Below are positions 3,536-45,621 of a stretch of DNA of 64,000 bases, one piece after another (the first letter of the stretch is position 1; every line of letters starts with the position of its first letter). A program made the position numbers and the translations under genes. The stretch is from Escherichia coli. GTDB taxonomy: Bacteria; Pseudomonadota; Gammaproteobacteria; Enterobacterales; Enterobacteriaceae. The stretch lies in the NCBI RefSeq assembly GCF_044324875.1, contig NZ_CP172185.1, one strand, 5' to 3'. The notes beneath the pieces are model-generated. The model was not told the origin of the DNA, did not search any database, and saw nothing but the letters and a program-made list of their open reading frames with translations.

Positions 3536-3938
3536 GTTTCGCGTTTCCGGTCATCAAAATTAACTACACCATTGACTACACCGTGCATCGTACAAGGGCA
3601 AACCGTGACGAACAAGAGCGAACAAGTAAAACAAAATTTTCCTTTATAATCATAGCGATGAATGCACACAAAACACTACCACGAACACCCGCGAACACTA
3701 GATGATAAATAACTATCATCTATCGTTGGCATCAGGACATCTGTCACATTCCTGTCAATAGCGTTAACTGCTTCAAATTTTTGATTCATACCTGCCCCCT
3801 GGCCCCTGTCAAATGCTTGACGGCTCGCCCTAATTCTCTAAATTGTATTTCTAGAGTTGGCGAGGTTTTGAACAGCCCCCTCTCTGACCCCGGTTTATTC
3901 CATCTTACTTGTATAAGATTTGCGAAGGATGTCGAAGC

Positions 3939-4163
3939 ATGGAAAAGGGTACTGTTAAGTGGTTCAACAATGCCAAAGGGTTTGGTTTCATCTGCCCTGA
4001 AGGCGGCGGCGAAGATATTTTCGCTCATTATTCCACCATTCAGATGGATGGTTACAGAACGCTAAAAGCTGGACAATCCGTTCAGTTTGATGTCCACCAG
4101 GGGCCAAAAGGCAATCACGCCAGTGTTATTGTGCCCGTCGAAGTAGAAGCGGCAGTCGCATAG
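3939..4163 (+). CDS. cspD: cold-shock-like protein CspD
   Basis: MEKGTVKWFNNAKGFGFI... cold-shock domain; 74 aa from the internal Met; ORF track begins at 3909. Confidence 0.95.
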   Translation: MEKGTVKWFNNAKGFGFICPEGGGEDIFAHYSTIQMDGYRTLKAGQSVQFDVHQGPKGNHASVIVPVEVEAAVA

Positions 4164-4195
4164 CTCTTCTGTCTCATTGTGTACATCCTAAAGGC

Positions 4196-4228
4196 AAAAT
4201 GCCAGCCCGATCGGCTGGCATTTTTATC
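4196..4228. terminator. bidirectional intrinsic terminator between convergent cspD and macB
   Basis: Palindrome tgccagccgatcggctggca flanked by an A-run upstream and a T-run downstream. Confidence 0.6.
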
Positions 4229-43224: not shown

Positions 43225-44910
43225 GTGAATATAAACGTCGCCGAATTGTTAAATGGGAATTACATTCTGTTATTATTTGTGGTCCTCGCGCTTGGGCTAT
43301 GTCTCGGGAAATTACGACTTGGTTCGATCCAACTGGGTAATTCCATTGGCGTTTTAGTCGTATCGCTGTTATTAGGCCAACAACATTTCAGCATTAACAC
43401 CGACGCGCTTAATCTTGGCTTTATGCTGTTTATTTTCTGCGTCGGGGTCGAAGCCGGACCGAACTTTTTTTCCATTTTTTTTCGCGATGGGAAAAATTAC
43501 CTAATGTTAGCACTGGTGATGGTTGGCAGTGCGCTGGTGATCGCCTTAGGGTTAGGTAAGCTGTTTGGCTGGGATATTGGCCTGACGGCCGGTATGTTAG
43601 CAGGCTCTATGACGTCGACACCGGTTCTGGTCGGTGCTGGCGATACACTGCGTCATTCCGGCATGGAAAACAGGCAGCTCTCACTGGCACTGGATAATCT
43701 GAGCCTCGGGTATGCCTTAACCTATTTAATCGGTCTGGTGAGTTTGATTGTTGGTGCGCGTTACTTGCCGAAATTGCAGCATCAGGACTTACAGACCAGC
43801 GCCCAGCAAATCGCCCGCGAACGTGGCCTGGACACTGATGCCAACCGTAAGGTTTATTTACCGGTGATCCGCGCCTACCGCGTCGGCCCGGAGCTGGTAG
43901 CCTGGACCGACGGCAAAAATCTGCGTGAACTGGGTATTTATCGACAAACTGGCTGTTACATTGAACGTATTCGGCGTAACGGGATTCTGGCAAATCCAGA
44001 CGGTGATGCCGTACTACAAATGGGCGATGAAATAGCGTTGGTAGGCTATCCTGACGCCCACGCCCGACTCGATCCCAGTTTCCGTAATGGCAAAGAAGTT
44101 TTCGATCGTGACCTTCTCGACATGCGTATCGTCACTGAAGAAGTGGTCGTTAAAAACCATAACGCTGTTGGCAAACGCCTGGCACAACTGAAGTTGACCG
44201 ATCACGGTTGCTTCCTTAACCGCGTCATACGTAGCCAGATTGAGATGCCGATTGATGACAACGTCGTGCTTAACAAAGGTGACGTTTTACAAGTCAGCGG
44301 CGATGCCCGCCGGGTAAAAACCATCGCCGATCGCATCGGCTTTATCTCGATTCACAGCCAGGTCACTGACTTGCTGGCATTCTGCGCCTTCTTTGTTATT
44401 GGGCTGATGATCGGGATGATCACCTTCCAGTTCAGCACATTCAGTTTCGGCATGGGGAACGCTGCCGGGTTGTTATTCGCCGGAATTATGCTGGGCTTTA
44501 TGCGTGCTAACCACCCGACCTTCGGTTACATTCCGCAGGGTGCATTAAGCATGGTGAAAGAGTTCGGCTTGATGGTGTTTATGGCAGGCGTTGGTCTGAG
44601 CGCCGGTAGCGGTATTAATAACGGCCTGGGCGCGATTGGCGGTCAGATGTTGATTGCCGGATTGATTGTCAGTCTGGTGCCCGTGGTTATCTGTTTCTTG
44701 TTCGGTGCTTATGTATTGCGAATGAACCGCGCACTGTTGTTCGGCGCAATGATGGGCGCACGCACCTGCGCGCCGGCAATGGAGATCATCAGTGATACAG
44801 CTCGCAGTAACATCCCGGCGCTGGGCTATGCGGGCACTTACGCAATCGCCAACGTCCTGCTGACGCTGGCAGGGACAATCATCGTCATGGTATGGCCAGG
44901 ATTAGGATAA
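43225..44910 (+). CDS. ybjL: AAE-family putative transporter YbjL (with two RCK_C/TrkA-C domains)
   Basis: 561 aa; GTG start; duplicated membrane domains flanking cytoplasmic TrkA-C-like domains. Confidence 0.9.
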
Positions 44911-44951
44911 AACTGAAGTTGCCCTGAAAATGAAATTTTTTTGCACAACCG

Positions 44952-44986
44952 CAGAACTTTTCCGCAGGGCATCAGTCTTAATTAGT
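44952..44986 (+). promoter_or_regulatory. sigma-E type promoter of rybB (-35 GAACTT at 44954-44959, -10 GTCTTA at 44975-44980)
   Basis: Match to the sigma-E consensus (GGAACTT -N16- TCTNA) positioned 7 nt upstream of the RybB 5' end. Confidence 0.6.
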
Positions 44987-45065
44987 GCCACTGCTTTTCT
45001 TTGATGTCCCCATTTTGTGGAGCCCATCAACCCCGCCATTTCGGTTCAAGGTTGGTGGGTTTTTT
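44987..45065 (+). ncRNA. rybB: RybB small regulatory RNA (sigma-E dependent, Hfq-binding)
   Basis: gccactgcttttctttgatgtcccc...ggttcaaggttggtgggtttttt matches my recollection of RybB including the 5' seed and terminator hairpin plus U-tail; located between ybjL and rcdA as in K-12. Confidence 0.85.
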
Positions 45066-45084
45066 GTTGCCTATAATTTATCTA

Positions 45085-45621
45085 CTACCCTGCAACCCTC
45101 TCAACCATCCTCAAAATCTCCTCGCGCGATAGCGGCTTACGGTCGGTGACAAAATGCAGCGTCATCCCCTCAATAAACGCATCAAGCGCGCGGGCGGTTC
45201 CGGGTTCAAACCATTGTTCGAGCGTTTGCTGACTGCGCTGCATCCAGTTTTGCATTACCGTTTTTAATAGCGGTTTTCGGCTAGCCAGCGCGTAGAGCTG
45301 GTACATCAGCTCCATGTTATCCGGCGTTGCAACCTGTGAGCTGTAGATCATATCGGTGATAGCCTGGCATGCGCCTTGAGCATCACTAACATCGCTAAAA
45401 AATGCCTGATATTGCCGGGACATGATCTCAGTAAAACTGCTGAACGCCTCCAGCAACAACTCATCAATTCCTGAAAAATAGTAGGTCATCGACCCCAACG
45501 GTACCCCGGCAAGGGTAGCAATTTTGCGGTGCGTAACAGCATGTATTCCGTAAAGTTTCACCGCCTCCAGCGTGGCCTGGATAATTTTTTCTCGCCGTTG
45601 CGGATCGTTAGCGCGACGCAT
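45085..45621 (-). CDS. rcdA: TetR-family transcriptional regulator RcdA (YbjK)
   Basis: 178 aa from [21 protein letters not shown]; N-terminal TetR HTH. Confidence 0.85.

What the first reader, a model, noticed from the sequence alone, without database searches (positions are those of the whole stretch)
44952..45065. RybB sRNA with sigma-E promoter present and intact
The sequence between ybjL and rcdA matches my recollection of the 79-nt RybB RNA, including the 5' seed GCCACUGCUUUUCUUUG and the terminator, with a sigma-E style -35 GAACTT and -10 GTCTTA upstream. It is the only RNA gene I can support in the window and confirms that envelope-stress small-RNA control is preserved.
Basis: partly seen in the sequence, partly recalled or inferred. 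Interest (0 to 1): 0.3.

Follow-up and report, generated by a model that had tools for sequence, protein, structure and literature searches.

The report
Ordinary intact E. coli rybB gene

Summary
Rfam's RybB model (RF00110) matches window 44990-45068 (+) over its full length at 104.1 bits (gathering score 40, E = 2.5e-20). The K-12 annotated 79-nt rybB aligns to 44987-45065, between ybjL (43225-44910, +) and rcdA (45085-45621, -).

Promoter and RNA are identical to K-12 except 45055 G (K-12 has A). This turns a U-A pair of the terminator stem into U-G, costs 0.6 kcal/mol and leaves the predicted fold unchanged. 738 of 5,420 E. coli records carry the same 79-nt allele.

The sigma-E boxes GAACTT (44954-44959) and GTCTTA (44975-44980) are correctly spaced. 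The combination occurs once in the window (0.02 expected by chance), and its core bases are 98-100% conserved in 113 distinct upstream regions from other Enterobacterales. The 12-bp terminator stem is 97% paired across 63 distinct sequences, with compensatory changes at 7 pairs.

No tRNA and no other Rfam family reaches threshold in the window. Expression, Hfq binding and target repression are inferred from the literature, not shown here.

Verdict: already known, low interest.

Side notes:
- The last bases of rybB overlap an unoccupied 27-bp attachment site for Fels-2/P2-like prophages.
- An IS1 copy truncates nfsA 3.8 kb upstream.

The parts
43225..44910 (+). ybjL (aspartate:alanine antiporter family), the upstream flanking gene; stop codon TAA at 44908-44910
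   Evidence: ORF of 561 aa. RefSeq annotation of strain 118UI maps ybjL to these window coordinates.
44936..44942 (+). T7 tract at -51..-45, upstream of the -35 box. It is a conserved T-rich element, possibly UP-element-like; that role is inferred.
   Evidence: T is the commonest base at -48..-45, in 79-89% of 113 distinct upstream regions from other Enterobacterales.
44953..44961 (+). Sigma-E -35 element AGAACTTTT (consensus GGAACTTTT; one mismatch, at the first base)
   Evidence: Sequence. Consensus as quoted in PMC1804206. Positions -33..-27 are 98-100% conserved in 113 upstream regions.
44975..44980 (+). Sigma-E -10 element GTCTTA (consensus GTCAAA); 15 nt separate GAACTT from GTC
   Evidence: Sequence. 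G-12, T-11, C-10 and A-7 are 100% conserved across 113 upstream regions. The motif combination is unique in the window, 0.02 expected.
44987..45065 (+). RybB small RNA, 79 nt, with +1 at G44987. The transcription start is taken from the K-12 annotation and was not measured here.
   Evidence: Rfam RF00110, 104.1 bits, E = 2.5e-20. Aligns to annotated K-12 rybB b4417 with one substitution.
44987..45002 (+). 5' seed / target-recognition end GCCACUGCUUUUCUUU. It contains CACUGCUUUU (44989-44998), which fits the 10-nt motif CRCUGCUUUU shared with the Vibrio MicV and VrrA sRNAs.
   Evidence: Identical to K-12. Motif as described in PMC6694218. Its invariance among the fetched homologues is by construction, because the first 20 nt were the search pattern.
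45021..45061 (+). Rho-independent terminator hairpin: 12-bp stem (45021-45032 with 45050-45061) and a 17-nt loop region containing a small 3-bp inner helix
   Evidence: MFE fold -24.6 kcal/mol. The stem is 97.2% paired over 63 distinct sequences, with 7 of 12 pairs showing compensatory changes; 0 of 500 shuffles reach the observed percentage paired or covariation score.
45055..45055 (+). The single difference from K-12 RybB: G instead of A, so pair U41-A69 becomes U41-G69
   Evidence: Alignment. Folds are -24.6 versus -25.2 kcal/mol with an identical structure. 738 of 5,420 E. coli records are identical over the 79 nt. U-G at this pair is seen in 3 of 63 distinct sequences.
45060..45068 (+). 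U-tail UUUUUUGUU. It forms the 3' end of the terminator and is the expected Hfq-binding 3' tail (inferred).
   Evidence: Sequence. The T-run and the TT at +7/+8 after its start are 98-100% conserved.
45055..45081 (+). Unoccupied 27-bp attachment-site core for Fels-2/P2-like prophages. It overlaps the last 11 nt of rybB and runs 16 nt beyond it.
   Evidence: In lysogen NZ_CP099754.1 the block GTGGGTTTTTTGTTGCCTGAAATTTAT is duplicated at both prophage ends. The window matches it at 25 of 27 positions and is contiguous from rybB to rcdA. Klebsiella phage 4LV2017 annotates attR over the equivalent of window 45036-45081. Integration at rybB is published in PMC10121019 and PMC4048246.
45085..45621 (-). 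rcdA (ybjK), the convergent downstream gene; stop codon TAG at 45087-45085
   Evidence: ORF. RefSeq annotation of 118UI maps rcdA to these coordinates.

Best explanation
This is the chromosomal rybB gene of an Escherichia coli strain, and it appears functional. The known mechanism follows; none of it was measured here. Misfolded outer-membrane proteins trigger degradation of RseA, which frees sigma-E. Sigma-E RNA polymerase recognises the -35 AGAACTTTT and -10 GTCTTA boxes and starts transcription at G44987. Transcription stops at the hairpin plus U-tail at about 45065. The ~79-nt RNA is bound and stabilised by Hfq. Its single-stranded 5' end, GCCACUGCUUUUCUUU, base-pairs with many omp mRNAs (ompC, ompA, ompW, ompF, tsx, lamB and others), blocks their translation and speeds their decay. 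This lowers the load of unassembled porins and feeds back on sigma-E activity. Shown here: gene identity, an intact promoter, seed and terminator sequence, synteny, and evolutionary conservation and covariation. Inferred: transcription, the exact 5' and 3' ends, Hfq binding and target repression in this strain.
For: - Full-length Rfam RF00110 hit: 104.1 bits against a gathering score of 40, E = 2.5e-20.
- A 221-bp segment around the gene is 100% identical to many E. coli chromosomes, where it lies between ybjL and rcdA, and is found in 5,422 of 5,426 complete genomes.
- The K-12 record annotates ncRNA rybB b4417 at the aligned position.
- Promoter and RNA are identical to K-12 apart from 45055.
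- The sigma-E box combination is unique in the window, with 0.02 expected. The positions GAACTTT and GTC..A are 98-100% conserved in 113 distinct upstream regions from many enterobacterial genera, while the 15-nt spacer varies.
- The terminator stem is 97.2% paired, with 7 compensatory pairs and 100 doubly changed cells; 0 of 500 shuffles reach the observed pairing, and slid registers fall to 50% paired or less.
- The G45055 allele folds identically to K-12, with a difference of 0.6 kcal/mol.
- Literature: strict sigma-E dependence of the rybB promoter, Hfq binding and repression of multiple omp mRNAs (PMC1804206); seed function (PMC6694218).
Against: Nothing in the sequence argues against it. 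Three caveats apply. The U-G wobble in the terminator is a minority allele (about 14% of records) and its effect on termination or stability has not been measured. The ViennaRNA z-score of the whole RNA is only -2.19, as expected for an sRNA with a long unstructured 5' half. The simple terminator scan did not flag the hairpin because its loop exceeds the scan's 8-nt limit.
Confidence: 0.97

Rival explanations
1. The gene is rybB, but the G45055 allele is functionally impaired. The U-G wobble would weaken the terminator or Hfq-binding module, so the RNA terminates poorly or is unstable.
For: One substitution in the 3' arm of the terminator stem relative to K-12. The predicted stability is slightly lower, -24.6 versus -25.2 kcal/mol. 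It is the minority allele.
Against: The MFE and centroid structures are unchanged and the loss is only 0.6 kcal/mol. The allele is carried unchanged by 738 E. coli records. The same pair is U-G in other distinct homologues and is A-U or U-A elsewhere, so the position tolerates change as long as it pairs. The U-tail is untouched.
Confidence: 0.03
2. The 3' end of this rybB allele, from 45055 onward, is a footprint of Fels-2/P2-like phage integration and excision. On this reading the terminator polymorphism and the four substitutions just downstream were imported from a phage att core rather than arising by ordinary drift. This concerns the history of the allele, not the identity of the gene.
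For: All five differences between the window and K-12 in 221 bp (45055, 45069, 45070, 45074, 45077) fall inside the 27-bp att core 45055-45081. My own combinatorial estimate puts the chance of such clustering at about 2e-5 if the changes were placed at random. The window core matches the lysogen's duplicated core at 25 of 27 positions, K-12 at only 22 of 27. The roughly 12 nt after the U-run (TTGCCTGAAAT) are conserved across genera at 58-100% although they lie outside the RNA, and conservation decays right after the core. About 1,000 E. coli genomes have the locus split at about 45081.
Against: Four of the five differences lie in the 19-nt spacer between the RNA end and the rcdA stop. This is the only part of the 221 bp without an obvious function, so neutral drift could cluster them there. 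The phage core may simply have evolved to match a host sequence that is conserved for its own reasons. No free-phage attP was recovered: the best 'phage' record was a prophage with host flanks. No test against the strain phylogeny was done.
Confidence: 0.35
3. Chance resemblance, or a degraded pseudogene copy of RybB.
For: None found.
Against: E = 2.5e-20 over the full model. There is a single copy, in the canonical syntenic position. 78 of 79 bases are identical to the experimentally characterised K-12 gene.
Confidence: 0

Closest known systems
RybB of Escherichia coli K-12 (b4417; Rfam RF00110)
   Same: Same locus (ybjL-rybB-rcdA), same 79-nt length, and identical promoter, seed and loop. 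78 of 79 RNA bases are identical.
   Different: 45055 G instead of A (U-G wobble in the terminator stem). There are four substitutions in the 19-nt spacer downstream of the RNA.
RybB of Salmonella enterica (Papenfort et al. 2006, PMC1804206)
   Same: The fetched S. enterica subsp. diarizonae RNA (L078) has the same 79-nt sequence as K-12. It has the same sigma-E promoter architecture and the same function in global omp mRNA decay.
   Different: The promoter spacer and upstream region differ, and the -10 is GTCATA in L078. Salmonella has the extra target ompD.
MicA and MicL, the other sigma-E-dependent Hfq sRNAs of E. coli
   Same: Same regulator and the same logic: they repress abundant envelope proteins under envelope stress (PMC6694218; PMC4102768 abstract).
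   Different: Unrelated sequences, different loci and different seeds. Neither is in this window.
MicV and VrrA of Vibrio cholerae
   Same: They share the 10-nt seed motif CRCUGCUUUU and sigma-E control. E. coli RybB can substitute for them (PMC6694218).
   Different: They are not homologous outside the seed and are absent from enterobacteria.

Membership tests
RybB sRNA (Rfam RF00110) | Covariance-model score at or above the family gathering score | tested here: met
   104.1 bits against 40, E = 2.5e-20, model positions 1-79 of 79, not truncated.
RybB sRNA (Rfam RF00110) | Conserved genomic position between ybjL and rcdA (ybjK), on the same strand as ybjL | tested here: met
   ybjL 43225-44910 (+), RybB 44987-45065 (+), rcdA 45085-45621 (-). 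This is the same arrangement as in K-12.
RybB sRNA (Rfam RF00110) | 5'-terminal seed GCCACUGCUUUUCUUU at the very start of the transcript | tested here: met
   Identical to K-12 at 44987-45002. It contains the CRCUGCUUUU motif. That the transcript starts at 44987 is inferred from the K-12 annotation and from conservation of the promoter spacing.
RybB sRNA (Rfam RF00110) | Rho-independent terminator hairpin followed by a U-tail | tested here: met
   12-bp stem plus U6. 97.2% paired, with 7 compensatory pairs over 63 distinct sequences.
Sigma-E regulon promoter | -35 GGAACTTTT and -10 GTCAAA-like boxes at sigma-E spacing upstream of +1 | tested here: met
   AGAACTTTT at 44953-44961 and GTCTTA at 44975-44980. 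Identical to the K-12 rybB promoter. Unique in the window. Core bases are 98-100% conserved. Consensus from PMC1804206.
Sigma-E regulon promoter | Transcription depends on rpoE and is induced by envelope stress | not testable with these tools
   Shown for Salmonella rybB, and cited for E. coli, in PMC1804206 and PMC6694218. No expression data exist for this strain.
Hfq-dependent trans-acting sRNA | Binds Hfq and needs it for stability and target pairing | not testable with these tools
   Literature only (PMC1804206). The sequence features expected for Hfq binding, a terminator with a U-tail and an internal AUUUUG, are present.

The most novel reading that the evidence does not exclude
The sequence of the RybB terminator's 3' arm and the ~16 nt beyond it may be shaped by Fels-2/P2-like phages that use 45055-45081 as their attachment core. 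On this reading the one base that distinguishes this RybB allele from K-12, together with the cross-genus conservation of TTGCCTGAAAT downstream of the RNA, reflects repeated replacement of the host sequence by the phage-borne core rather than selection on RybB itself.
Probability: 0.3. Interest if true: 0.3.

Novelty: already known. Interest (0 to 1): 0.07.

Why it matters
It matters little beyond annotation. It confirms that this E. coli strain keeps an intact copy of one of the three sigma-E-dependent small RNAs that limit porin synthesis during envelope stress, at an attachment site that a P2-like prophage occupies in roughly a fifth of complete E. coli genomes. RefSeq/PGAP annotation does not label rybB: 'none' is listed under the match. 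A covariance-model pass is therefore needed to annotate it.

Tried and rejected
1. The simple promoter/terminator scan found neither the sigma-E promoter, because it models only sigma-70, nor the RybB terminator, because its loop region of 17 nt exceeds the scan's 8-nt limit. This is not evidence against either feature.
2. My first structure string for the pair count was one column out of register (50.6% paired, with the -1 slide at 97.2%). I corrected it.
3. RNAalifold on the MAFFT alignment introduced a one-column bulge and an implausible long-range 5' helix. I used the Rfam/MFE stem instead.
4. I looked for a free-phage attP to test the att-footprint idea. The best 'phage' record (ON470620.1) is a prophage prediction that includes host rcdA and ybjJ. 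The Klebsiella phage records begin and end at att. No independent attP was obtained.
5. A whole-window BLAST against what I took to be the K-12 locus file returned hits to many loci, because that file holds many records. It was not used, except to note that cross-species synteny alignments tend to end at 45072-45081.
6. The mechanical ORFs overlapping the RNA (44985-45149 +, 54 aa; 44902-45039 -, 45 aa) have no support and were dismissed.
7. A sigma-70-like site on the minus strand at 45104-45075 (9 of 12 matches) is within chance expectation (0.5 per region) and was dismissed.

Full report
**What is in the sequence**

Window 44987-45065 (+) reads GCCACTGCTTTTCTTTGATGTCCCCATTTTGTGGAGCCCATCAACCCCGCCATTTCGGTTCAAGGTTGGTGGGTTTTTT. 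A scan of all 64 kb against Rfam 15 at gathering thresholds gives exactly one hit. It is RF00110 (RybB) at 44990-45068 on the + strand, covering model positions 1-79 of 79, at 104.1 bits against a gathering score of 40, E = 2.5e-20. The Rfam model starts three bases inside the RNA, so its coordinates are shifted relative to the gene. The K-12 MG1655 record annotates ncRNA rybB (b4417, 79 nt) between rcdA and ybjL, and that feature aligns to window 44987-45065.

**Organism and context**

- A 221-bp segment around the gene is found in 5,422 of 5,426 complete E. coli genomes and is 100% identical to many of them. In each it lies between ybjL and rcdA.
- Mapping the RefSeq annotation of strain 118UI onto the window gives ybjL at 43225-44910 (+) and rcdA at 45085-45621 (-).
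- The arrangement is ybjL, then rybB on the same strand, then convergent rcdA. This is the K-12 arrangement read on the opposite strand.

**Promoter**

- GAACTT is at 44954-44959 and GTCTTA at 44975-44980. These are -33..-28 and -12..-7 from a +1 at 44987, with 15 nt between GAACTT and GTC.
- Papenfort et al. give the sigma-E motifs as GGAACTTTT and GTCAAA. They showed that rybB promoter activity falls to background in a rpoE mutant (PMC1804206).
- The window has AGAACTTTT and GTCTTA and is base-for-base identical to K-12 across the whole ybjL-rybB intergenic region.
- The pattern GAACTT-N15-GTCWWA occurs once in the window, against 0.02 expected from shuffles.
- I fetched 120 loci from other species with the 20-nt 5' end of RybB as the search pattern, then anchored the 113 distinct upstream sequences at +1. 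G-33, A-32, A-31, C-30, T-29, T-28, T-27 and G-12, T-11, C-10, A-7, T-4, T-1 are 98-100% conserved. The spacer between the boxes is variable, with the commonest base at 40-72%. A T-tract at -48..-45 is also conserved (79-89%).
- This pattern, with conserved boxes at fixed spacing and a drifting spacer, is what a functional sigma-E promoter should show. The upstream sequences were not used to select the loci, so this test is independent of the search pattern.

**RNA structure**

- The window RNA folds into a 12-bp terminator stem (45021-45032 with 45050-45061) with a small inner helix, followed by U6. The 5' 34 nt are left essentially open. The MFE is -24.6 kcal/mol.
- On an alignment of the window with 62 distinct homologues, this stem is 97.2% paired. 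Seven of its 12 pairs show changes on both sides, in 100 cells. None of 500 column shuffles reaches the observed pairing or covariation score. Sliding the 3' arm by one to three columns drops pairing to 50% or less.
- My first attempt at this count was one column out of register and should be ignored.
- The invariance of the first 20 nt in this alignment is by construction, because they were the search pattern. Positions 21-25 (UCCCC) were not selected for and are also invariant.

**The one difference from K-12**

- 45055 is G where K-12 has A. This changes pair U41-A69 of the stem to U41-G69.
- The predicted structure is unchanged and the energy changes from -25.2 to -24.6 kcal/mol.
- 738 of 5,420 E. 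coli records are identical to the window over all 79 nt; nearly all the rest differ by 1-3 bases.
- At the same pair, other distinct homologues carry U-A (38), A-U (16) or U-G (3).
- I see no reason to think the allele is impaired and give that rival 3%.

**Mechanism**

What follows rests on established work, not on anything measured here. RybB is transcribed by sigma-E RNA polymerase when envelope stress releases sigma-E from RseA. It binds Hfq with high affinity and depends on it for stability. Through its 5' end it pairs with many omp mRNAs and accelerates their decay, which lowers the flux of unfolded porins and feeds back on sigma-E (PMC1804206; PMC6694218). The 10-nt motif CRCUGCUUUU that Peschek et al. 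identify as the conserved seed of sigma-E-dependent sRNAs is present at 44989-44998. All sequence modules needed for this mechanism are intact in the window: promoter, seed, terminator and U-tail. Transcription, the RNA ends, Hfq binding and target repression in this strain are inferred.

**'The only RNA gene in the window'**

- ARAGORN finds no tRNA or tmRNA.
- A permissive Rfam scan (E up to 1) adds only two hits. One is a sub-threshold cspA-thermoregulator match at 3834-4227 (41.6 bits against a gathering score of 78), which lies over cspD and most likely reflects paralogy of the cold-shock genes. The other is a meaningless UCA1 match at E = 0.82.
- In K-12 the nearest tRNA, serW, lies just beyond clpA, evidently just outside the window.

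**'Envelope-stress small-RNA control is preserved'**

This overreaches slightly. Only rybB is in the window. rpoE, rseA, hfq, micA, micL and the targets were not examined.

**Things found along the way**

1. Attachment site for P2-like prophages.
   - About a thousand E. coli genomes match the 221-bp query only up to about 45081 and have a second partial match elsewhere.
   - In one of them (NZ_CP099754.1) a P2-like prophage of about 34 kb lies between rybB and rcdA, with ogr, gpD, tail, capsid, repressor and integrase genes.
   - Its two ends share the 27-bp block GTGGGTTTTTTGTTGCCTGAAATTTAT. This corresponds to window 45055-45081: the last 11 nt of rybB plus 16 nt beyond.
   - Integration of Felsduovirus/Fels-2-like phages into rybB is already published for E. 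coli (PMC10121019) and Klebsiella (PMC4048246). A Klebsiella phage record annotates attR over the same bases.
   - In the window the site is unoccupied.
   - All five differences between the window and K-12 in the 221 bp (45055, 45069, 45070, 45074, 45077) fall inside this core. The window is closer to the lysogen's core (25 of 27) than K-12 is (22 of 27).
   - The ~12 nt after the U-run are conserved across genera, and conservation decays where the core ends.
   - This is compatible with phage-driven replacement of the 3' end of the locus. It is also compatible with drift in the only unconstrained spacer, plus a phage core that mimics a host sequence. I could not separate these two explanations.
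2. Two IS1 copies.
   - Two identical 768-bp IS1 copies lie in inverted orientation at 40437-41204 and 57860-58627. InsA and IS1 transposase domains were confirmed by Pfam.
   - The first is flanked by a 9-bp duplication (GTTCGGCGG). It truncates nfsA after about residue 220 of 240.
   - From my own knowledge, IS insertions in nfsA are a classical route to nitrofuran resistance. This was not checked here.
   - The second copy replaces about 1.97 kb spanning parts of dgcI and pdeI relative to strain 118UI.
   - The two copies bracket the 16.7-kb segment that contains rybB.

**Verdict**

The observation and the interpretation are both correct. The feature is the already known rybB gene, in its canonical place and in working order as far as sequence can tell. 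Interest is low.

Noticed in passing
window 45055-45081: Unoccupied 27-bp attachment core for Fels-2/P2-like prophages, overlapping the last 11 nt of rybB. About 1,000 of 5,426 E. coli genomes have the locus split at about 45081, and one of them, examined here, carries a ~34-kb P2-like prophage at that point. All five differences between the window and K-12 in the surrounding 221 bp fall inside this core.
   Followed up: partly
window 45066-45078, compared with loci L003-L122: The ~12 nt downstream of the RybB U-tail (consensus NTTGCCTGAAAT) are conserved at 58-100% across many enterobacterial genera, although they lie outside the annotated RNA. Conservation falls to background about 19 nt after the start of the T-run. 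The cause is not resolved; it could be a phage att footprint, a 3'-extended terminator context, or something else.
   Followed up: partly
window 40437-41204: A 768-bp IS1 (InsA and IS1 transposase domains) is inserted in the 3' end of nfsA with a 9-bp target duplication, GTTCGGCGG. The nfsA ORF (41183-41860, minus strand) is cut after about residue 220 of 240. Disruption of nfsA by IS elements is a known route to nitrofuran resistance; that statement comes from my own knowledge and was not tested.
   Followed up: partly
window 57860-58627: A second IS1 copy, 100% identical to the first and in inverted orientation. Relative to strain 118UI it replaces about 1.97 kb covering the 5' part of dgcI and the 3' part of pdeI, which looks like an IS1-adjacent deletion. 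The two IS1 copies bracket the 16.7-kb segment containing rybB.
   Followed up: partly
window 29119-32628: About 3.5 kb that is absent from a locus matching the window at 97.6-97.9% identity, probably the lysogen L002 (the BLAST database held many records). In strain 118UI the equivalent position, between artJ and rlmC, holds a sulfatase and PTS IIB/IIC genes.
   Followed up: no
window 3834-4227: Sub-threshold Rfam match to the cspA thermoregulator (41.6 bits against a gathering score of 78, E = 2.7e-7), lying over cspD. It probably reflects paralogy of the cold-shock genes rather than a thermosensor.
   Followed up: no
RefSeq records matched by window 44987-45065: PGAP-annotated E. coli genomes list no feature under rybB ('none'). 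Only the curated K-12 record annotates it.
   Followed up: no
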